From NCBI RefSeq assembly GCF_057098645.1, contig NZ_JBXSPU010000004.1: DNA of 11,304 bases; one strand, given 5' to 3'. Below the pieces are notes generated by a model that saw only the letters and a program-made list of their open reading frames with translations, was not told where the DNA came from and did not search any database. Shown piece by piece: positions 1,159-11,303 of the stretch. Position 1 is the first letter of the stretch. Every line of letters begins with the position of its first letter. Made by a program: the position numbers and the translations under genes. Origin of the DNA: a plasmid.

Positions 1159-1353
1159 ATGAATCAGGACAAAGCAATTTATTTAGAAAATAAATATTTT
1201 TCACCCGCAAACGAAGCTGTCAGACTGGAGCGTGAAGGCGATTACATTGGAGCATGGAAAAAATGGAATGATGCGCTTCATTATGCCAAAGGAGAAAATA
1301 TAGGTTGGTGTATAGCCAGAGCTGAATATTGTAAAAAGACAGGCCGGTTTTAA
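1159..1353 (+). CDS. Hypothetical small protein (64 aa), possibly a helical TPR-like fold
   Basis: ORF with AT-rich upstream region and A/T-rich codon usage unlike the flanking GC-rich DNA; only a weak Shine-Dalgarno. No family recognised. Confidence 0.35.
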   Translation: MNQDKAIYLENKYFSPANEAVRLEREGDYIGAWKKWNDALHYAKGENIGWCIARAEYCKKTGRF

Positions 1354-1367
1354 TTCTGGCGGGGTTT

Positions 1368-1386
1368 CAAAGGGGCGCCCCCTTTG
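1368..1386. other. GC-rich stem-loop just after the 64-aa ORF stop
   Basis: caaagggg-cgc-cccctttg, an 8-bp perfect stem with 3-nt loop; no following T-tract, so not a canonical intrinsic terminator. Confidence 0.3.
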
Positions 1387-1489
1387 GCACCTCGACGTAT
1401 CAAAATGCACCAGCATTTTGTATACAGTCGGTCATGTGCCTCCAGGATTTACCATCAAAAACGCCCCTGTAGTTAATCCTGAATCAAGG

Positions 1490-1584
1490 TATAACTAAGA
1501 TATAATTAGCGTATAACTAAGGCATAACTAAAGTATAACTAACTTGGTGTGCATATAATTAACATATAACTAATGTATAACTAA
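1490..1584 (+). repeat. Array of about eight direct repeats of TATAACTAA phased at 11 bp (iteron-like)
   Basis: Copies start at 1490, 1501 (tataattag), 1512, 1523 (cataactaa), 1534, 1554 (tataattaa), 1565 and 1576; one degenerate slot near 1545. Confidence 0.7.
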
Positions 1585-1770
1585 CGGTTCACCAACGGAT
1601 CGCATGTAGTAGACGCTACATAAAAAATCCTGAAATGGAGGATTCGTCATAAAGAGATTCTTTTTTTTAGCGTTCTGATGCAGAACAGGGCAAACACCGC
1701 AAAAATGATGAAAAACTGATTAACCATACTGTCTGTATTCTGAATGAATTACGAAGCATAGCGATAAATT

Positions 1771-1797
1771 AAAAAATCCCCCTGGATTACAGGGGGA
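1771..1797 (-). terminator. Intrinsic-terminator-like hairpin plus U-tract (minus strand)
   Basis: Plus strand aaaaaa-tccccctg-gatta-caggggga: 8-bp perfect stem; on the minus strand the hairpin is followed by TTTTTT. Confidence 0.4.
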
Positions 1798-1904
1798 AGC
1801 TATCAGAGTTTGAGTAATGAGAAATATTATTTTGGAGAGAGCATCACAAATGCGCTCTTTTCCAATCTGCCGTAACCATCGGCAAAAGACAATCAGGACA
1901 GGCG

Positions 1905-1931
1905 AAAAAATCCCCCTATATGGCAAGGGGG
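1905..1931 (-). terminator. Intrinsic-terminator-like hairpin plus U-tract (minus strand)
   Basis: Plus strand aaaaaa-t-ccccct-atatggca-aggggg: 6-bp GC stem; minus-strand T6 follows. Confidence 0.4.
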
Positions 1932-2028
1932 TGTCAATGAGGACATGGCAATTGTGAGTTTTGTGTGTGTTTTATGTGTTGCAGTTTGCAACGTCAGAAA
2001 TTTGCCGTAGTTCGTCATGAGAGACAAC

Positions 2029-2070
2029 AAAAAAATCCCCCGTGACTGGTGGAGGCCAGGGCAAGGGGGG
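2029..2070 (-). terminator. Intrinsic-terminator-like imperfect hairpin plus U-tract (minus strand)
   Basis: Plus strand aaaaaaa-tcccccgtgactgg...ccagggcaagggggg; CCCCC/GGGGG and CTGG/CCAG arms; minus-strand T7 follows. Confidence 0.3.
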
Positions 2071-2279
2071 TAGCAAATGCCTGAATAATTTTCGTAGTTT
2101 TGATATACCCATCGTTGCAACCGCAACGGGATGAATTTGCCGCAGTTGTGCGCGAAAAACAATCCTGATTCCGGGACAGGATGTGTAATCGTATAACCGC
2201 GCACGCACGGCTATGCGATTACCACCTGGTCAGGGCTTTGCCCCGACACCCTCGACACCGTTCCCGCGATACGATAGAA

Positions 2280-2483
2280 GGGGTTCTAAGCCGGAAACCC
2301 AGAAAATTCCGTCACCAAAGCTAGTAATCGACAGATTTGCATGACGTTGAATAGGTGACGGGTTATGTGACGATATTTGGTGTCGAAATCGTTGTTTCAG
2401 TGACAGTCACTCAATCGATCGTTTGTGTGACACTCCCGTAAAAACTTGTCGCAGAAAAATCCAGGTTTCCGGCCGGGAACCCC
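2280..2483. mobile_element. 204-bp miniature element with Tn3-family-like terminal inverted repeats and 5-bp target duplication (TIME-like, non-autonomous)
   Basis: Left end GGGGTTCTAAGCCGGAAACCCAGAAAATTCCG; right end read inward GGGGTTCCCGGCCGGAAACCTGGATTTTTCTGCG. Both start GGGGTTC like the transposon IRs at 7516 and 11303. Flanked by identical TAGAA at 2275-2279 and 2484-2488. No ORF inside. Confidence 0.6.
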
Positions 2484-2571
2484 TAGAACATCAGGGCGCG
2501 TTTCCGGGTAAACGCATGTTAATGACCGGGAATTCATTGATCAGGGACCGGAGACGCGCTACAAAACTCCT

Positions 2572-2713
2572 GCGCGTTTCTGGCATCAACTGACCATGGG
2601 GATGGTTTGGCAGTAGCAGCAAGCGCCAGAAACGCGCTCAAAACGCCTCTGGCGGCAAAACCATTGCCCGATGCAAAAAAGTGCGTTACAAAGCCTCTGA
2701 GCGCGTTTCTGGC
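2572..2713. repeat. Nested inverted copies of GCGCGTTTCTGGC forming long-range hairpins, followed by a T-tract
   Basis: gcgcgtttctggc at 2572-2584 and 2701-2713; its reverse complement at 2624-2636. The pair 2624-2639 / 2698-2713 is a perfect 16-bp inverted repeat. T6 at 2716-2721. The 15-mer CTGAGCGCGTTTCTG recurs at 3466-3480 inside cer. Confidence 0.5.
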
Positions 2714-3097
2714 GTCTTTTTTGTTGCTGTGTCGCTATACTCGTTGTCAGATTCGCGCTCAATCATCACTGATTAATCTGCGCTTATCCTTCGACTGATC
2801 ACGCTGGTATTTTTTGACAACCGGTTCCCATGAAAACGCCAGACGGGAACCGTCATCCGCACCCTCTGACATGCTGGGGATTAAAAATCCCTGTGCCGCA
2901 CAGCCGGCGTTGCATAAAATTCCGCTCTGCGATGAGTATTGTTTAATCAAAAATCCCCTCGTTTTCTCCAGAAAAACGCGAGTCTGTTCTCATGCCCCGG
3001 ATGCCCACACCCCACGCAAAACCAACTTTTTTCTGATTTGCTTTTTAAATCATGTTGTTATGGTTTGAAAAATATATTTTCTTATTCAGATTTATAC

Positions 3098-3270
3098 AAA
3101 AGCGAGTCGTCGGCGACTACTGGATGATTCGGCAACGAGTCGTCGGTGATTTATCGATGACTCAACACACTGTCTCCCTGGTGTTCAGAAAAAGCGAGTC
3201 GCCAGAGAGTCGCGAGGAAAAATACTGGATGACTCGCTGATGGCTCCCGGGGTGAATCGCTCACGACTCG
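3098..3270. repeat. Cluster of GAGTCG / CGACTC-containing direct and inverted repeats
   Basis: (G/A)CGAGTCGTCGG at 3101-3113 and 3134-3146; ACTGGATGA(T/C)TCG at 3118-3130 and 3224-3236; GAGTCGCC and GAGTCGCG at 3196-3213; CGACTCG at 3264-3270. Confidence 0.5.
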
Positions 3271-3299
3271 TCTGTAACTACTGTCTGATTTCTTCTCAT

Positions 3300-3516
3300 C
3301 AGGGCTGAAAACGTCCGAAAATGCGCCTTATGGGAATCAGGCGCGCCCAAACCGATCGCCATTCAGTTTCATGCATAGTCATGCAGTGCCATGAAAACAA
3401 TCCTGACGTATTTTTCCGGTTTACCCGGGGGGAAAACATCTCTTTTTGCGGTTTTTGCGTCAGAATCGCGCTGAGCGCGTTTCTGCGGTGCGTACAATTA
3501 AGGGATTATGGTAAAT
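3300..3516 (+). other. cer-type multimer resolution site (accessory sequences plus XerC/XerD core)
   Basis: Core at 3487-3516 reads GGTGCGTACAA-TTAAGGGA-TTATGGTAAAT, which is the ColE1 cer XerC arm, 8-bp central region and XerD arm as I recall them. About 190 bp of upstream accessory sequence includes an ARG-box-like segment near 3360-3385. Left boundary approximate. Confidence 0.8.
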
Positions 3517-3524
3517 GTCTCCCT

Positions 3525-3947
3525 TTACTGCCTGCCCTCGTAGCCATCAAGATAAACCGCAGAAATCGTGTCAGCCAGCAGCTTCATTTTTTCCGGTGAT
3601 GGCATATCACCGTTCGTGTATTTTCTGCCAGCAAAGGTTGTTGTGCTCCGGAGTGAGTGAAAAAATTTTTCTGAGTGGAATTCTTTTACACGTTGCTGTG
3701 CCGTTTCTGCTGATACTCCGGCTGCTTTGTCTTTCATCCCCATATCCCGGAACTGCTGAAAGAACGGGTGCATCATACGTATGGTGTCTGCTTTCTGGGT
3801 GTGGAAGTTAGGATCAAATCCATCATCTGAAGCATAAACATAATGCCGGGTATGTCGTTCCAGGCTGGTCTTTGGTGTGCATCCTGTAAGAGCTATTGTT
3901 GCTGTTATCAGAGGTATCAGAAGCAGCCTGACAGCGGCAGATCTCAT
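3525..3947 (-). CDS. Putative lipoprotein (140 aa), function unknown
   Basis: N-terminus MRSAAVRLLLIPLITATIALTGC has a signal peptide and lipobox L-T-G-C; AGGAG Shine-Dalgarno 7 nt upstream on the minus strand. No family recognised. Confidence 0.6.
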   Translation of the reverse strand: MRSAAVRLLLIPLITATIALTGCTPKTSLERHTRHYVYASDDGFDPNFHTQKADTIRMMHPFFQQFRDMGMKDKAAGVSAETAQQRVKEFHSEKFFHSLRSTTTFAGRKYTNGDMPSPEKMKLLADTISAVYLDGYEGRQ

Positions 3948-4873: not shown

Positions 4874-6346
4874 ATGGATAAAGTCACTGATAATTCTCCA
4901 GATGTGGAGAGCACAGAATCTACTGAGGGGTCATTCCCAACCGTTGGGGTTGATACTGGCGATACGATTACAGCGACGCTTGCAACTGGAACTGAAAATG
5001 TTGGTGGAGGCGGTGGAGCATTTGGTGGGGCCAGTGAAAGTTCTGCTGCGATACATGCAACCGCTAAATGGTCTACCGCGCAGTTGAAAAAACATCAGGC
5101 TGAACAGGCTGCCCGTGCTGCTGCGGCTGAGGCAGCATTGGCAAAAGCGAAATCTCAGCGTGATGCCCTGACTCAACGTCTCAAAGATATTGTTAATGAC
5201 GCTTTACGTGCTAATGCCGCCCGTAGTCCATCAGTAACTGACCTTGCTCATGCCAATAATATGGCAATGCAGGCAGAGGCTGAGCGTTTGCGCCTTGCGA
5301 AGGCAGAGCAAAAAGCCCGTGAAGAAGCTGAAGCAGCAGAAAAAGCGCTCCGGGAAGCAGAACGCCAACGTGATGAGATTGCCCGCCAACAGGCTGAAAC
5401 CGAGCATTTGTTAGCTATGGCTGAGGCTGCTGAGGCTGAAAAAAATCGACAGGATTCTCTTGATGAAGAGCATCGGGCTGTGGAAGTGGCGGAGAAGAAT
5501 CTGGCTGAGGCTAAAGCTGAACTGGCGAAGGCTGAAAGCGATGTACAGAGTAAGCAAGCGATTGTTTCCAGAGTTGCAGGGGAGCTTGAAAACGCTCAAA
5601 AAAGTGTTGATGTGAAGGTTACCGGATTTCCTGGATGGCGTGATGTTCAGAAAAAACTAGAGAGACAATTGCAGGATAAGAAGAATGAATATTCGTCAGT
5701 GACAAATGCTCTTAATTCTGCTGTTAGCATTAGAGATGCTAAAAAAACAGAAGTTCAGAATGCTGAGACAAAATTAAAAGAAGCTCAGGATGCGCTTGAG
5801 AAGAGTCAGGTAAAAGATTCTGTTGATACTATGGTTGGGTTTTATCAATATATAACCGAACAATATGGAGAAAAATACGCAAGAATTGCTCAGGATTTAG
5901 CGGAAAAGTCTAAAGGAAAGAAAATTAAAGGTGTTGATGAAGCTTTAGCTGCATTTGAACAGTATAAAAATGTACTGGATAAGAAATTCAGTAAGGTTGA
6001 TAGGGATGCTATTTTTAATTCTTTAGAGTCTGTTAATTATGATGAGTTATCTAAGAATTTAACGAAGATATCAAAGTCGCTTAAAATCACTAGTCGAGTA
6101 TCTTTTCTATATGATGTTGGTTCTGATTTTAAAAATGCAATAGAAACTGGTAACTGGCGTCCTTTATTTGTCACGCTGGAGAAAAGTGCGGTAGATGTAG
6201 GTGTTGCAAAAATTGTGGCATTAATGTTTAGTTTTATTGTCGGCGTGCCTCTTGGTTTCTGGGGGATTGCTATTATCACAGGTATTGTTTCTTCTTACAT
6301 AGGGGATGATGAGTTGAACAAGCTTAATGAATTGCTAGGTATTTAA
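4874..6346 (+). CDS. cta: Pore-forming colicin of the E1 family, colicin 10-like (490 aa)
   Basis: Gly-rich N-terminal region, then [20 protein letters not shown]...[13 protein letters not shown]...LAHANN...ERLRLAKAE matching colicin E1 as I recall it. C-terminal channel domain ends [21 protein letters not shown]...LGI (E1: GIWGIAIVTGILCSYI...EVLGI). The length and the TonB-box-like DTITATL at residues 30-36 fit colicin 10; the symbol is tentative. Confidence 0.9.
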
Positions 6347-6848: not shown

Positions 6849-6957
6849 GTAAACGAAAAAACCGCCTGGGGAGGCGGTTTAGTCAAAGGTTAAGTCAGTT
6901 GGGGAACAGCTTAACCGGGTAACTGGCTTCAGCAGAGCGCAGATACCAAAAACTTGT
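6849..6957 (-). ncRNA. RNA I antisense copy-number regulator
   Basis: Antisense to the 5' ~110 nt of RNA II; its 5' end corresponds to the complement of cagataccaaaaacttgt (pBR322 RNA I begins ACAGTATTTGGTATCTG); three-stem-loop region. Ends approximate. Confidence 0.65.
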
Positions 6958-7515: not shown

Positions 7516-7553
7516 GGGGTTCCGTGGGAATTTCTGCGATAACACCCGCTAAG
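7516..7553 (+). repeat. Left 38-bp terminal inverted repeat (IRL)
   Basis: GGGGTTCCGTGGGAATTTCTGCGATAACACCCGCTAAG. Confidence 0.85.
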
Positions 7554-7699
7554 CGATTCCTCCCTGACGGAAATCACTTGTTTTCCGTCAGGTCCTGCAG
7601 TTGAAGAAAATTGAATCCATAAATCTGTGATTTTTTGCGTGACAAACCCTGTCGGAATGAGAAACTGTACGGAAACTTCAATTTTAAGGTTTGTCGTAC
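7554..7699 (+). promoter_or_regulatory. res site (resolvase binding subsites) and tnpR promoter region
   Basis: 30-bp palindrome cctgacggaaa-tcacttgt-tttccgtcagg at 7563-7592, plus further TGTCGGAA / TGTACGGAA / TGTCGTACA half-sites at 7648-7700, between IRL and tnpR. Confidence 0.55.
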
Positions 7700-8323
7700 A
7701 TGTTGATTGGTTATATGCGGGTATCAAGCAATGATGAACGTCAGTCAGTTTCTTTGCAGCGTGATGCGTTGATTGCTGCTGGAGTGGATCCCCGGCATTT
7801 ACATCAGGATCATGCTTCAGGTGCTCGTGATAATCGCCCGGGACTTAAGTCCTGTCTCGCTGAACTTCGCGAAGGTGATGTACTGATAGTCTGGAAACTG
7901 GATCGACTTGGTCGTTCACTCTCACATTTGCTCCGAATTATTGAAGACCTGAAAATTCGTGGTATTGCTTTCCGATCATTGACTGAATCTATTGATACAA
8001 CAACGCCACACGGCTCGTTCCTCTTTAACCTTTTTGGCACGCTCGCGGAGTACGAAAGAACACTTATCACAGAACGCGTTAATGCTGGTCTGGCTGCTGC
8101 TCTCCGGCGGGGGAGAAAAGGCGGAAGGCCACCGGCGATAGATGCTGAAAAGGTTGATCAAATCCTCGCAGCTCTGGAAGGAGGTGCCAGTAAAGCGTCA
8201 GTATGTCGCGCATTCAGTGTGCCACGCTCAACGCTCACCGATACTCTACGACGAATTGGCTGGGCCGGACCTGGGGGGCGTAATCTGACAACGGATCAGA
8301 GCAATGTCATTTCTCGACTCTAA
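7700..8323 (+). CDS. tnpR: Serine recombinase (resolvase), Hin/Gin invertase-like
   Basis: MLIGYMRVSSNDERQ...RPGLK...GDVLIVWKLDRLGRS...GIAFRSLTESIDTTTP...GRKGGRPPA parallels Gin (MLIGYVRVSTNDQ...GDTLVVWKLDRLGRSM...GINFRSLTDSIDTSSP...GRIGGRPPK) as recalled. I place the start at ATG 7700 (AAGG about 10 nt upstream); the ORF track starts at an upstream TTG, 7691. Confidence 0.85.
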   Translation: MLIGYMRVSSNDERQSVSLQRDALIAAGVDPRHLHQDHASGARDNRPGLKSCLAELREGDVLIVWKLDRLGRSLSHLLRIIEDLKIRGIAFRSLTESIDTTTPHGSFLFNLFGTLAEYERTLITERVNAGLAAALRRGRKGGRPPAIDAEKVDQILAALEGGASKASVCRAFSVPRSTLTDTLRRIGWAGPGGRNLTTDQSNVISRL

Positions 8324-11270
8324 ATCGTACGATACGCTTTTTGGATTACCTGAACTTTATGAGGATGCACTTCCCCGGTTTTCGCTCTCCTGCGAGGATA
8401 TTGCATTCGCCAGAACTCATCGTCGATCTCATAACCGTCTGGGTTTTGCCATTCAGCTTGCACTTGTCCGTGATCTCGGTCGTACACTGCGTGCAGGAGA
8501 GATTCCCCCGGAGGCTGTTATCACCGTTGTTGCGGAACAACTGGATATTGACCCTGCTGTTTTTACACTTTACGCACAACGTGAGGAAACCCGCCGGGAA
8601 CATGCCCGCGAAATAGTTTCGGCTTTGGAGCTTCGTTCCGTCCGGAGTAGCGATTACAGAATGCTCATTATCGCGGCTACACGCGAAGCAGCAACCACCG
8701 AAAAAGGACTGCCGATCACCAGAGCAGTTATCAATAAGCTGAAGGACCAGAAGTTACTTGCCCCTGCTCCGGCACAACTCATCCGTCTGGCAATGGCGGG
8801 CCGGGCGGCTGCCCGTCGCCTTTCTTATCGGGAACTCATCAGGGATCTGAAACCTTCATCCATTAGCGCTCTCGAGCAGTTGCTTACCGAACGAGTCGGA
8901 GAAAAGAGCATTTTAGGCTGGATAGCTGAAGCGCCGGAAGGCGTGAAACTCAAGAATCTTAAGGGGTTAATTGCCAGGCTGGAGGTATTACGAACAGCGG
9001 CAATCTCCGATGAGCAACGTAAACGGATTCATGTAAACCGTTACGGTATTATTGCCCGGGATTCTCGCGTTTTACATGCGCGTGAAATACAACGAATGGC
9101 ATCCGAACGCTGTCATGCCACGCTGGTAGCCTTTGTTATTGAAAAGCAGGCAGCAATTACAGATCTGGCAATTGATATGTTCTGCAAATTGATTGGCAGC
9201 ACGAGGCGCAGAGCAGAGATAAGCCAGAAAGAGCGTCGTCTGAAAGCCGCTGAAGTACTTGAAGTCGTAGCTCAGGATCATATTAAGTTGGGACGGGCTC
9301 TCCTGGCAGCACGTGACGGTAATACTGATATTGAATCTGTAATAACAGCATCACTCGGCTGGGAAGGTTTGATTGCCAGTATGGAGGCTGCAGCTTCGGT
9401 GGCATCTTCCCATCACTGTTCTGAACTGGATGAACTTATCGGACGACAAAAATCATTACGTAAGCTTGGACGACTCATTTTCAGCGCTTTTTCTTTCAGA
9501 GCTTTTCGCCCGGATGATAGCGTTTTGTTGGCGATTGGGTATTTGCAGGCGTTCTATCATGGCCGAAAATTACCCAAACAAATTCCGCTCGATTTTATGT
9601 CCCATAAATGGCGACGTCGTGTCATCCATGGAGAAAATACCGATCTGCAGGCGTGGGAAGTCGCCGTATTCGTTCATTTGCGGGAACGCCTGAAAACAGG
9701 TGACATATGGGTTGATGGTAGTCGGGCCTGGCGTAGTTTTGAGGACTACCTTCTTCCTCACCATGTTTTCGGGCAGATGCGGGCAGAATCCCGGCTGGGA
9801 CTTGCCATTCCGGACAACTTTGCTGAATGGCGGGCTGAGCGAACCACCACACTCAACGCAAAACTGAAAGCGCTGGCAAAAGCTGCTTCGGAGAATGCCA
9901 TACCCGATGCAGAACTTTCCAGCAGAGGGTTGTCTGTGTCTCCGATTCGCGAAGAAGAGAGCGACAAAATTAAGGCTCTCAGCCGTAAACTCTACATGCT
10001 GGTACCACGCATCAGAATTACCAGTTTGCTGGCAGAAGTTCATAGCTGGACCAGTTTTCTTGATTGTTTCACCCATTATCGCACCGGGGAACAGGCGGAA
10101 GATGAAGCTGCACTTATGGCTGCGATCCTTGCCGATGCGACGAATGCGGGAGCAGAACGGATGGCGCAGAGTTCCCGGGGTGTCACCATTCACCAGATGA
10201 TGGTAATGATGGATCGTCATTTACGCACTGAAACCTATGCGTCTGCCACATCAGTTCTGGTCGATGCGCAACAGGAACATCCTTTTGCTGCTATATGGGG
10301 GGATGGGCATGTGTCATCCTCGGACGGGCAGTTTTTTCCTGCGGGTGGACGAGGAGAAGCCAGCCTCGAATATAACGCCAAATACGGCAAACGACCTGGC
10401 GCGTCGATTTATGGTTTTTTATCGAACCGTTTTGCATCCTTTTTTTCCAGAATGATTCAGGCCTCTGAAAGCGAGGCTCCCTACGTACTTGACGGCTTAC
10501 TTCATAACGAAAGTTCTGTGGTAATTCATGAGCATGCCACCGATACAGCCGGTGCGACTGAAACAACATTTTCAATGTTTCACTCTTTTGGTTACAGACT
10601 CATACCCCGTATTCGCAACCTCGGCAGTCGCAGGTTGTACGTTATTTCCCCCTCAGAGGAATATAAACCACTTGATGCCCTGATCGCCGGAAAGGCCAAA
10701 ATGGAAGTAATAGAACAGCACTGGGATGAAGTTCTGCGGCTTAAGGCCTCGATCGGCGCTGGTCTGGTACCACCATCGGTAATACTGAAAAAGCTGGCAG
10801 CATCTCCGAGACAAAACAGGCTCAATCTGGCCCTGCGTGAAATGGGACGTATTGAACGCTCAATTTTTATCTGTGACTGGTTGCTTGACACTCGGTTACG
10901 TCGCAGATCACACGCAATCCTCAACAAAGGCGAAAGCCGCCATGCACTTGCCCGCGCTATTTTTCTTCACCAACTGGGCGAATTCCGGAACAGGGCTGCC
11001 GAGACAATGGCTCACAGGGCATCGGGCCTCAACCTTGTTGTTAATGCAATAATTCTGTGGAACACGGTCTATCTCAGTCGGGCTGTTGATTACATTCGCA
11101 GCCAGGGGATCATTATACCGGAAGAGCTCTTGTCCAGTGTATCACCACTACCATGGGGTCATATCTCGCTCACTGGAGATTACCTGTGGAACGAAATTGA
11201 CCATCCCCTTGAACGATACAGGCCACTTCGTACTAATCGCTTCAATCCAAAGAACTTCACTTTTCCTTAG
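8304..11270 (+). CDS. tnpA: Tn3-family DDE transposase (988 aa)
   Basis: HNRLGFAIQLALVRDLG, NKGESRHALARAIFLHQLGEFRNR and NAIILWNTVYLSRAVDYIRSQG mirror Tn3 TnpA motifs (HNRLGIALQIGCVRFLG, NRGESRHAVARAICHGQKGEIRKR, NAVVLWNTIYMQAALDHLRAQG). Overlaps the tnpR 3' end by 20 nt. Confidence 0.93.
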   Translation: MSFLDSKSYDTLFGLPELYEDALPRFSLSCEDIAFARTHRRSHNRLGFAIQLALVRDLGRTLRAGEIPPEAVITVVAEQLDIDPAVFTLYAQREETRREHAREIVSALELRSVRSSDYRMLIIAATREAATTEKGLPITRAVINKLKDQKLLAPAPAQLIRLAMAGRAAARRLSYRELIRDLKPSSISALEQLLTERVGEKSILGWIAEAPEGVKLKNLKGLIARLEVLRTAAISDEQRKRIHVNRYGIIARDSRVLHAREIQRMASERCHATLVAFVIEKQAAITDLAIDMFCKLIGSTRRRAEISQKERRLKAAEVLEVVAQDHIKLGRALLAARDGNTDIESVITASLGWEGLIASMEAAASVASSHHCSELDELIGRQKSLRKLGRLIFSAFSFRAFRPDDSVLLAIGYLQAFYHGRKLPKQIPLDFMSHKWRRRVIHGENTDLQAWEVAVFVHLRERLKTGDIWVDGSRAWRSFEDYLLPHHVFGQMRAESRLGLAIPDNFAEWRAERTTTLNAKLKALAKAASENAIPDAELSSRGLSVSPIREEESDKIKALSRKLYMLVPRIRITSLLAEVHSWTSFLDCFTHYRTGEQAEDEAALMAAILADATNAGAERMAQSSRGVTIHQMMVMMDRHLRTETYASATSVLVDAQQEHPFAAIWGDGHVSSSDGQFFPAGGRGEASLEYNAKYGKRPGASIYGFLSNRFASFFSRMIQASESEAPYVLDGLLHNESSVVIHEHATDTAGATETTFSMFHSFGYRLIPRIRNLGSRRLYVISPSEEYKPLDALIAGKAKMEVIEQHWDEVLRLKASIGAGLVPPSVILKKLAASPRQNRLNLALREMGRIERSIFICDWLLDTRLRRRSHAILNKGESRHALARAIFLHQLGEFRNRAAETMAHRASGLNLVVNAIILWNTVYLSRAVDYIRSQGIIIPEELLSSVSPLPWGHISLTGDYLWNEIDHPLERYRPLRTNRFNPKNFTFP

Positions 11271-11303
11271 CGTGTGTTATCGCAGAAATGCCCACGGAAC
11301 CCC
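11266..11303 (-). repeat. Right 38-bp terminal inverted repeat (IRR)
   Basis: Reverse complement reads GGGGTTCCGTGGGCATTTCTGCGATAACACACGCTAAG; differs from IRL at positions 14 and 31. Confidence 0.85.

What the first reader, a model, noticed from the sequence alone, without database searches (positions are those of the whole stretch)
1622..2200. Tandem array of paralogous hairpin/U-tract units: candidate cluster of small RNA genes on the minus strand
The 9-mer AAAAATCCC recurs six times on the plus strand (1622, 1772, 1906, 2031, 2883, 2950). At least four are followed by a GC hairpin, which on the minus strand reads as stem-loop plus U-tract. The three units between 1771 and 2200 are spaced about 125-134 bp apart and share internal motifs in the same order (TACGGCAAATT-like, a GTTGCA..TGCAAC hairpin, CAAAACT). 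The only ORFs crossing them run through the hairpins and look non-protein-like. Each unit has a plausible -35/-10 about 60-80 nt upstream of its hairpin, so three or four short structured transcripts are possible. I do not recognise this from ColE1-family plasmids.
Basis: seen in the sequence. Interest (0 to 1): 0.7.

Follow-up and report, generated by a model that had tools for sequence, protein, structure and literature searches.

The report
Small-RNA-like units behind a transfer origin
Three tandem 135-bp units, each a promoter-like box pair, a short structured body and a terminator, lie directly behind the nick site of a borrowed IncI-type transfer origin on a small E. coli colicin plasmid; they look like an undescribed family of small RNA genes, but nobody has shown that they are transcribed.

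Summary
Units A (1892-1771), B (2027-1905) and C (2162-2029) lie on the minus strand, exactly 135 bp apart. Each has TTGTYT, 17 bp, cGG-CARATT, a G seven bases on, usually a 5' hairpin, an A/C-rich single-stranded stretch, then a GC hairpin with a T6-7 run.

Position 2172-2253 is an IncI/R64-type origin of transfer with no relaxase gene. Its nick lies at 2177|2176 on the minus strand, 14 nt upstream of unit C. The array is therefore the first DNA to enter a recipient.

The same nick-plus-unit module occurs on ColE1-type, Col(MP18) and IncF/X mosaic plasmids and in gut metagenomes, in 1-3 copies and at least nine body types. Two units sit on Yersinia pestis pPCP1. Box hexamers and spacing are conserved while bodies differ. 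Terminator stems show compensatory and wobble changes that fit only the minus sense.

There is no Rfam match and no paper. The promoter is weak (6/12), a pPCP1 sRNA catalogue lists no RNA at the two unit positions, and a unit-less R64-type oriT plasmid is mobilised well.

Site 1622 is a different module. Sites 2883 and 2949 flank a second, F-type oriT. Best reading: a new oriT-linked sRNA gene family of unknown target.

The parts
2172..2253 (-). IncI/R64-type origin of transfer with no relaxase gene on the plasmid. Nick inferred between 2177 and 2176 in ACACATCCTG|TCCCGG on the minus strand, an 18-nt inverted repeat at 2185-2222 and a second imperfect repeat at about 2229-2251. The transferred strand is the minus strand and the leading side is towards lower coordinates.
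   Evidence: Window 2172-2210 is 100% identical to the site 58 bp upstream of nikA-like mobA and the MOBP relaxase on IncI-gamma/K plasmid pRM9872-1. The oriT is present in 559 of 5426 complete E. coli genomes. The nick position and polarity come from my recollection of the R64/RP4 nick consensus, and are consistent with nikAB lying on the high-coordinate side.
2029..2162 (-). Unit C: -35-like TTGTTT 2162-2157, 17-bp spacer, -10-like CAAATT 2139-2134, predicted start G at about 2127, 5' hairpin GUUGC-GGUU-GCAAC 2127-2114, single-stranded linker containing UCAAAACUACGAAAAUUAUU, terminator hairpin 2069-2037 and T7 run 2035-2029. Predicted RNA of about 98 nt.
   Evidence: In the terminator stem, pair 65-85 is GC in 4 sequences and UA in 3, with U.G wobbles. 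An orthologue on pPCP1 is 80% identical.
1905..2027 (-). Unit B: TTGTCT 2027-2022, CAAATT 2004-1999, predicted start G at about 1992, 5' hairpin GUUGCA-AAC-UGCAAC 1992-1978, CA-rich linker, terminator 1931-1912 and T6 run 1910-1905. Predicted RNA of about 87 nt.
   Evidence: L193 carries a symmetric loss of one U-A pair in the terminator stem.
1771..1892 (-). Unit A: TTGTCT 1892-1887, CAGATT 1869-1864, predicted start G at about 1857, 5' hairpin within 1863-1834, linker AAAAUAAUAUUUCUCAUUACUCAAACUC, terminator 1797-1777 and T6 run 1776-1771. Predicted RNA of about 86 nt. It is preceded by CGCCTGTCCTGA, a copy of the nick core.
   Evidence: (z = -3.3).
1600..1660 (-). It has no box pair and is not a member of the A/B/C family.
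   Evidence: 90% identical to pPCP1 2720-2662 in the inverted orientation. It is inverted relative to the transferred strand in L163, L156 and L183. No box match was found.
1703..1771 (+). 3' remnant of a 75-aa gene of unknown function (..DEKLINHTVCILNELRSIAIN*). The gene is intact on Col(MP18) relatives and converges on unit A.
2883..2975 (-). Two further hairpin/T-tract elements (hairpin 2903-2891 with a T5 run at 2887-2883; the second lies within about 2975-2949). They lie 20-110 nt behind the F-type nick and are not members of the A/B/C family.
   Evidence: Degenerate copies sit at the same place in pSL26_ColRNAI.
2985..3120 (-). Second oriT with no relaxase gene on the plasmid, of F type. 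Nick inferred at 2997|2996 in TTTGCGTGGGGTGT|GGGC on the minus strand, with the same polarity as the IncI-type oriT.
   Evidence: Window 3005-3116 matches about 2000 IncF plasmids between the SLT transglycosylase gene and traM. Alignment.
2557..2720 (.). Region carrying three GCGCGTTTCTGGC repeats, which travels with the IncI-type oriT on unrelated backbones.
   Evidence: Conserved upstream of the oriT in Col(MP18) plasmid L011 and on pPCP1.

Best explanation
Units A, B and C are three independently promoted and terminated non-coding transcription units, that is, small RNA genes giving RNAs of about 86, 87 and 98 nt. They are read on the minus strand, away from the nick site of an IncI/R64-type oriT that has no relaxase gene of its own. 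They belong to a portable 'oriT plus unit(s)' module that relaxase-less plasmids use to be moved by IncI-complex conjugative plasmids.

Shown: the anatomy, the position 14 nt behind the nick, the spread of the module across backbones, the variable copy number, and selection on the terminator hairpin in the minus sense.

Inferred: a weak sigma-70 promoter (TTGTYT, 17 bp, cGG-CARATT) starts transcription at the conserved G. The RNA carries a protective 5' hairpin, an A/C-rich single-stranded region and an Hfq/ProQ-style terminator with a U-tail. The RNA has the sense of the transferred strand, so it cannot be made from the incoming single strand. It would be made in the donor and, in a new host, as soon as the leading end becomes double-stranded. 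I think the RNAs most likely act in trans on host or helper-plasmid transcripts during establishment or hitch-hiking. They are not needed for nicking or transfer itself. The target is unknown.
For: The box pair occurs three times with an exact 135-bp period, against 0.00 expected. Across nine unit types from several backbones, pPCP1 and metagenomes, the bodies are unrelated. TTG of the first box, A2 and T6 of the second, the G two bases before it and the 17-bp spacing are invariant, and seven types have G exactly 7 nt after the second box. Between the window and the most diverged full array (L193), all six hexamers are 100% identical while spacers and bodies vary. Each unit ends in a GC hairpin plus a run of 5-10 T (6-7 in the window), and the scan finds 8 terminator-like sites against 2.1 expected. 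Seven of nine types have a hairpin at or within a few nt of the predicted 5' end, built from different sequences. In the C terminator, pair 65-85 is GC in 4 sequences and UA in 3, and the U.G and G.U substitutions would be A.C mismatches on the other strand. In type G an A-to-G change keeps a pair as G.U. Recombinants join units precisely at the box (L134) or at the terminator (L002), giving 1-3 copies. The module lies behind the nick on ColE1-type, Col(MP18) and IncF/X mosaic plasmids. An oriT-adjacent sRNA needed for mobilisation has a precedent in SGI1 (PMC9299015).
Against: There is no expression evidence. The RNA-seq sRNA catalogue of Y. pestis 201 lists only RNAI, sR084 and sR104 on the high-copy pPCP1 and nothing at the two units. 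The box pair matches the sigma-70 consensus at only 6 of 12 positions, and the promoter scan (9/12 or better) found none in 1300-3300. No complementarity of 12 nt or more was found to the rest of the plasmid or to 8 kb around an IncK oriT/nikAB. The CA-rich linker of B varies in length, which is odd for a seed. IncI/K conjugative plasmids have the oriT without units. A pEC156-type plasmid with a unit-less R64-type oriT (L195) belongs to a type that R64drd11 mobilises at 0.24-0.52 (PMC4743918), so the units are dispensable for transfer as such. Much of the conservation comes from closely related sequences.
Confidence: 0.5

Rival explanations
1. The units act in cis through the act of transcription and the RNA is irrelevant. 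A promoter firing away from the nick, closed off by a terminator, keeps the neighbouring oriT negatively supercoiled or open for the helper's relaxosome. It would replace the divergent nikA promoter that these plasmids lack, or shield the oriT from converging transcription.
For: Only the boxes, spacing and terminators are shared by all types, while the bodies are unrelated. The first unit always starts 14 nt (11-12 nt from CCTGTCC to TTGT) after the nick. In L134 and L193 a 75-aa gene converges on the array from the other side. In F the gene next to oriT (the SLT transglycosylase) is likewise read away from the nick.
Against: 5' hairpins are kept across types with different sequences, and the linker is conserved between C orthologues (window and pPCP1), which points to selection on the RNA. 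pPCP1 keeps two units where the oriT core is missing. Unit-less R64-type oriTs work well. The supercoiling mechanism itself is pure inference.
Confidence: 0.15
2. The units are signals on the transferred single strand: priming sites (ssi or sso-like) or protective hairpins for complementary-strand synthesis in the recipient. They would not be genes.
For: They occupy the first 400 nt of the strand that enters the recipient. The structured sense is that of the transferred strand. The strand folds better than shuffles as DNA (z = -4.6).
Against: The DNA fold shows only local hairpins, and the two boxes are not paired into a duplex promoter as in Frpo. The conserved positions and the 17-bp spacing fit a double-stranded promoter. 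A GC hairpin followed by a T-run is a terminator signature with no known role in priming. CTG, the DnaG start triplet (from memory), is not invariant in the second box. Primers made this close to the 5' end would copy little.
Confidence: 0.1
3. The units are decaying relics. An ancestral leading-region promoter plus terminator was duplicated together with part of the nick region by unequal crossing-over, and now has no function.
For: Unit A is preceded by a copy of the nick core, CCTGTCC. Copy number changes easily by recombination. The promoter is weak. The units are absent from many working oriTs. They are rare, in 29 of 5426 E. coli genomes.
Against: At least nine diverged types all keep the boxes, spacing and terminator, and seven keep the start G. 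There are compensatory changes in a terminator stem. The module is retained on unrelated backbones and in metagenomes.
Confidence: 0.15
4. The region encodes small proteins, namely the ORFs at 1893-2204 and 1720-1926 on the minus strand.
For: Open reading frames of 103 and 68 codons exist, and some records annotate a 'hypothetical protein' there.
Against: Homologues carry indels that are not multiples of three inside these ORFs. The frames run through terminator hairpins. RefSeq annotates nothing in this record. I saw no ribosome-binding sites in the sequence.
Confidence: 0.02

Closest known systems
sgm-sRNA of Salmonella Genomic Island 1 (PMC9299015)
   Same: A small RNA encoded next to the oriT of an element that cannot transfer by itself and depends on a helper plasmid.
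   Different: There is no sequence relation. sgm-sRNA is processed from the 3' end of a longer primary transcript, lies between mpsA and the oriT, works with a tyrosine-recombinase-type relaxase and an IncC helper, and is essential for transfer. Here there are three autonomous promoter-terminator units behind an IncI-type nick, and a unit-less oriT of the same type is mobilised well.
FinP antisense RNA of F-like plasmids
   Same: A short, stem-loop-rich RNA with a terminator and U-tail, encoded close to an oriT on an enterobacterial plasmid. It is the ligand type of FinO/ProQ-family proteins.
   Different: FinP is antisense to the traJ leader on the tra side of the oriT. These units have no gene on the opposite strand in the window, lie on the leading side and come as a tandem array. 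There is no Rfam match.
Frpo / single-stranded-DNA promoters of F and IncI1 leading regions (Masai and Arai 1997; Bates et al. 1999, as cited in PMC3817090)
   Same: Repeated non-coding elements in a leading region with -35/-10-like boxes.
   Different: Frpo works because the transferred strand folds into a long hairpin that rebuilds a duplex promoter and serves as the template. Here the transferred strand has the RNA sense, the boxes are unpaired in the DNA fold, and each unit ends in a terminator after about 90 nt.
Orphan R64-type and F-type oriTs on small ColE1-like plasmids (pEC156, pColG, pKPN2, pSe-Kan; PMC4743918, PMC9282650)
   Same: The host element is of this kind: a ColE1-type plasmid with no relaxase gene, an R64-like and an F-like oriT, and cer.
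   Different: In the pEC156-type plasmid I examined (L195) the two oriTs face each other and no units follow the R64-type nick. In the window the two oriTs are in tandem and the IncI-type nick is followed by three units.
Tandem paralogous sRNA loci of enterobacteria (for example sibA-E, rdlA-D, omrA/B; from general knowledge)
   Same: Head-to-tail paralogues, each with its own promoter and intrinsic terminator, whose copy number changes by recombination.
   Different: Those are chromosomal, and Sib and Rdl are antitoxins paired with a toxin ORF. Here the units are on plasmids and linked to an oriT, and no toxin partner was found. The 26-codon hydrophobic ORF at 1722-1642 shows no complementarity to the units.

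Membership tests
IncI/R64-type (MOBP) origin of transfer | Nick-region core ...CATCCTG|T... preceded by the NikA-binding inverted repeat about 8 nt away | tested here: met
   ACACATCCTG|TCCCGG at 2186-2171 on the minus strand, and an 18-nt inverted repeat at 2185-2222. 39 bp are 100% identical and about 80 bp 97.5% identical to the IncK plasmid oriT.
IncI/R64-type (MOBP) origin of transfer | Lies immediately upstream of nikA-nikB in conjugative relatives | tested here: met
   In pRM9872-1 the matching site is 58 bp upstream of nikA-like mobA and the MOBP relaxase gene.
IncI/R64-type (MOBP) origin of transfer | Nicked and mobilised by an IncI-complex helper | not testable with these tools
   Only indirect evidence exists: pEC156, with a related R64-type oriT, is mobilised by R64drd11 (PMC4743918).
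Bacterial small RNA gene (independent transcription unit) | Own promoter | tested here: inconclusive
   TTGTYT-17 bp-CARATT, with G two bases before the second box in all nine types and G at +7 in seven. Only 6 of 12 consensus positions match, below the scan threshold.
Bacterial small RNA gene (independent transcription unit) | Rho-independent terminator | tested here: met
   GC hairpin plus a run of 5-10 T (6-7 in the window) in every unit, with compensatory and wobble changes in the stem.
Bacterial small RNA gene (independent transcription unit) | Detected discrete transcript | not testable with these tools
   No data exist for this plasmid. The pPCP1 units are absent from the Yan et al. 2013 sRNA list.
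Bacterial small RNA gene (independent transcription unit) | Non-coding | tested here: met
   Frame-breaking indels among homologues and no annotated CDS.
Any Rfam 15 family (including RNAI, FinP, MicA) | Covariance-model score at or above the gathering threshold | tested here: not met
   Nothing in 1590-2270 comes near a gathering score. The best hits score 18-21 bits against thresholds of 41-175.
Frpo-type single-stranded-DNA promoter | The transferred strand folds into a long hairpin that pairs the -35 and -10 boxes and serves as the template | tested here: not met
   The DNA fold of the transferred strand gives only short local hairpins with the boxes unpaired. The transferred strand has the sense of the predicted RNA.
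HmsA/sR084 sRNA of pPCP1 | Homology to pPCP1 9434-9498 (minus strand) | tested here: not met
   The window matches pPCP1 only at 2314-2873 and 8785-8839. sR084 coordinates come from the PMC3770706 supplement.

The most novel reading that the evidence does not exclude
The units are a family of oriT-linked small RNAs that relaxase-less hitch-hiker plasmids carry at the very front of the transferred strand. The RNAs would manipulate the helper plasmid or the new host, for example by raising helper transfer, damping a host response or defence, or competing with rival hitchers. The unrelated RNA bodies of the nine types would then be different specificities.
Probability: 0.2. Interest if true: 0.8.

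Novelty: new variant of a known kind. Interest (0 to 1): 0.55.

Why it matters
Most plasmids cannot transfer on their own, and many are now thought to move by carrying only an oriT. What else such minimal hitch-hikers need is an open question. The module described here is a conserved, duplicating non-coding unit fixed to the leading edge of a widespread oriT type. That oriT type is present in about 10% of complete E. coli genomes, although the units themselves are in only about 0.5%.

If the RNAs are real and act on the helper or the recipient, they would be an RNA counterpart of the protein anti-defence and establishment genes found in the leading regions of large plasmids. They would also be a second example, after SGI1, of an sRNA tied to mobilisation.

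Two copies sit on pPCP1, a virulence plasmid of Yersinia pestis. Public plague RNA-seq data could therefore test the idea at once.

Tried and rejected
1. HmsA/sR084 of pPCP1 as the identity of the units: it lies in a different, non-homologous locus.

2. Rfam: a whole-window scan and a permissive scan of 1590-2270 gave only RNAI elsewhere and chance-level hits.

3. Frpo-like single-stranded promoter: the fold and the strand sense do not fit.

4. Coding ORFs and a type I toxin idea. The 21-codon ORF in unit B is not conserved in C. The 26-codon hydrophobic ORF at 1722-1642 lies outside the units and has no complementary partner.

5. CRISPR-repeat mimicry: I considered it by eye against the I-E and I-F repeats as I recall them. 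There is only a 9-10-nt resemblance and no hairpin arms, so I dropped it.

6. The genome-contig scan with CGGCARATT-N63-93-GGGGATTTTTT was almost all noise. Only two pPCP1-type loci passed the -35 filter.

7. Metagenome hits L154 and L177 looked at first like the promoter driving a protein gene. They have no oriT repeat upstream and sit in chromosomal contexts, so they are chance matches.

8. A duplex-energy target scan of the plasmid timed out. Exact-complement searches found nothing beyond chance.

9. A full-text search for the box sequences in papers returned only unrelated primers.

10. Furuya and Komano 1991 (the R64 nick site) is not held, so the nick position rests on memory plus context.

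11. pEC156 itself is not in the plasmid collection. A pEC156-like 4315-bp Salmonella plasmid was used instead.

Full report
**What the window is.** The window is essentially the complete 11,304-bp plasmid NZ_CP062882.1 of E. coli O157:H16 from pig faeces. It is ColE1-type: RNAI lies at 6853-6954 on the minus strand, rop at 342-536, and a perfect ColE1 cer core at 3487-3516. It carries a colicin operon and a Tn3-family transposon. RefSeq annotates nothing between the ANR regulator gene (1159-1353) and the Exc2 lipoprotein gene (3525-3947). The finding lies inside this 2-kb stretch.

**Check of the observation.** AAAAATCCC occurs five times exactly, against 0.2 expected. Site 1622 has one mismatch. 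On the minus strand the sites read as a GC hairpin plus a T-run. Three of them belong to true paralogues. The pattern TTGTYT-N14-CGGCARATT matches only at 1864-1892, 1999-2027 and 2134-2162 on the minus strand, exactly 135 bp apart, with 0.00 expected. The 1622 element has no such boxes. It is a separate 59-nt module that is inverted on pPCP1 and in other contigs. Sites 2883 and 2949 also lack the boxes.

**The missed context: two transfer origins.**
- Window 2172-2210 is 100% identical to a site 58 bp upstream of nikA-like mobA and the MOBP relaxase gene on an IncI-gamma/K plasmid. The similarity runs on to about 2253.
- The minus strand reads IR - ACACATCCTG|TCCCGG. This is the R64/RP4-type nick region as I recall it; the primary paper was not available.
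- nikAB lie on the high-coordinate side in the relative. The transferred strand is therefore the minus strand, and DNA at lower coordinates enters the recipient first.
- Unit C's first box starts 14 nt after the nick, so the array is the leading edge of an IncI-type oriT. No relaxase is annotated on the plasmid.
- A second oriT, of F type, lies at about 2985-3120 with the same polarity. Window 3005-3116 matches about 2000 IncF plasmids between the SLT gene and traM. The 2883 and 2949 hairpins lie just behind its nick.
- Small ColE1-like plasmids with both oriT types are known, and pEC156 is mobilised by both F and R64 (PMC4743918).

**Anatomy of a unit on the minus strand.**
- Boxes: TTGTYT, a 17-bp spacer ending in YRCGG, CARATT, six bases, then G.
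- Body: in A, B and C a hairpin starts at or next to that G, followed by 35-45 nt predicted to be unpaired and rich in A and C, with a CAAAACU-like motif.
- End: a GC-rich hairpin and T6-7.
- Predicted RNAs: about 86 nt for A, 87 nt for B and 98 nt for C.

**Relatives.**
- Plasmid searches and a metagenome scan for nick plus boxes (53 true loci and 2 chance matches) gave at least nine unit types, A, B, C, P2, M, K, G and H plus variants.
- The bodies are largely unrelated. TTG, the 17-bp spacing, G two bases before the second box, and A2 and T6 of that box are invariant, and G at +7 holds in seven types.
- All have the sense of the transferred strand.
- Apart from the pPCP1 copies they lie within about 20-420 nt behind an IncI-type nick, on ColE1-type, Col(MP18) and IncF/X mosaic backbones.
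- Copy number is 1-3. L134 joins the C promoter to the B body exactly at CGGCAAATT, and L002 joins C to A at the terminator.
- pPCP1 of Y. pestis has a C orthologue (80% identical) and a further unit, P2. P2 follows the usual upstream oriT sequences, but the oriT core is missing.
- IncI/K conjugative plasmids share only the oriT.
- The oriT is in 559 of 5426 complete E. coli genomes, and the A-C array is in 29, always on plasmids.

**Evidence on structure.**
- In seven C variants the 5' hairpin stem is invariant while its loop varies.
- In the terminator, pair 65-85 is GC in four sequences and UA in three. Three other pairs show C-G to U-G or G-C to G-U changes. On the plus sense these would be mismatches, so selection acts on the minus sense.
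- In L193 the B terminator has lost one U-A pair symmetrically. In type G an A-to-G change keeps a pair as G.U.
- Between the window and L193, all six hexamers are identical while spacers and bodies differ.

**What it is not.**
- No Rfam family matches.
- It is not HmsA/sR084.
- It is not coding, because homologues carry frame-breaking indels.
- It is not Frpo-like. The transferred strand folds only into local hairpins with the boxes unpaired, and it has the RNA sense, so it cannot be the template.

**Weaknesses.**
- The box pair matches only 6 of 12 consensus positions, and the scan at 9/12 or better finds no promoter.
- The only pPCP1 sRNA catalogue I could read lists RNAI, sR084 and sR104 but nothing at the units, although pPCP1 is high-copy from my own knowledge.
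- I found no target: no complement of 12 nt or more on the plasmid or in 8 kb around an IncK oriT.
- A pEC156-type plasmid has an R64-type oriT with no unit, and that plasmid type is mobilised by R64drd11 at 0.24-0.52. The units are therefore not required for transfer as such.

**Mechanism.** I rank the explanations as follows.
- Three autonomous sRNA genes whose products act in trans: 0.5.
- Cis-acting transcription that conditions or shields the oriT: 0.15.
- Relics of duplication: 0.15.
- Single-strand signals: 0.1.
- Coding: 0.02.

The RNA has the sense of the transferred strand, so expression in a recipient must wait for complementary-strand synthesis. The leading end would be among the first DNA to become duplex; this last point is inference.

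**Novelty.** I found no description in Rfam or in the searched literature. The nearest precedent is the oriT-adjacent sgm-sRNA of SGI1, which differs in origin, processing and essentiality. I class the finding as a new variant of a known kind. It is of moderate interest and is quickly testable with existing plague RNA-seq data.

Noticed in passing
window 7516-11303 versus RefSeq NZ_CP062882.1 1468-5258: The window is not collinear with the RefSeq record. The Tn3-family transposon (resolvase plus 988-aa transposase) interrupts the colicin gene in the record. In the window it sits inverted between the replication origin and rop, flanked by a 5-bp duplication TGATT, and the colicin ORF (4874-6346, 490 aa) is intact.
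   Followed up: partly
window 2280-2483: A 204-bp miniature inverted-repeat element with GGGGTTC... terminal repeats and a 5-bp target duplication TAGAA is inserted about 30 bp upstream of the IncI-type oriT repeats. The site is empty in L134 and L160. The ends resemble, but are not identical to, those of the plasmid's Tn3-family transposon.
   Followed up: partly
window 2985-3120: A second oriT with no relaxase gene, of F type (nick motif TTTGCGTGGGGTGT|GG on the minus strand), lies in tandem with the IncI-type oriT and has the same polarity. In the pEC156-like plasmid L195 the two oriT types face each other instead.
   Followed up: yes
window 1490-1600: Eight direct repeats of TATAACTAA-like sequence with an 11-bp period, arranged 5 + 3 around a 20-bp gap, lie between the ANR gene and the unit array. 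The layout recalls a centromere or iteron set, but no partition or Rep gene is next to it. Function unknown.
   Followed up: no
window 1722-1642 (minus strand): A 26-codon ORF encodes a very hydrophobic peptide with a basic tail (MVNQFFIIFAVFALFCIRTLKKRISL) and ends at the 1622 hairpin/T-tract. It is kept, with amino-acid changes, in L160. It has no obvious ribosome-binding site and may be an artefact of a recombination joint with the 75-aa gene remnant on the other strand.
   Followed up: partly
L136, L137, L138, L156 (small E. coli plasmids and a gut contig): Several small plasmids carry two IncI-type oriTs facing each other 200-450 bp apart, so each lies in the other's leading region. One 11-kb contig (L156) holds four oriT copies of three repeat variants.
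   Followed up: no
window 2557-2720; L011 1030-1150; pPCP1 (L004) 2314-2488: Three copies of GCGCGTTTCTGGC, two direct and one inverted, around CCATCCCCATGG travel with the IncI-type oriT on unrelated backbones and remain on pPCP1, where the oriT core is gone. They may be an accessory protein-binding region.
   Followed up: no
L005 4143-4154 versus window unit B (1946-1935): Unit B shares a 12-nt identity (ATGTCCTCATTG) with the sense strand of nikA on an IncK plasmid. About 0.07 such matches are expected by chance. The sequences are identical rather than complementary, so this is not a pairing site.
   Followed up: no
L010 versus L004 (pPCP1-type plasmids): An E. coli pesticin plasmid has the P2 terminator as CCGGGGGAATTTTTTT. 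Y. pestis pPCP1 has CCGGGTGAATTTTTTT, a change that weakens the stem in the plague lineage.
   Followed up: no
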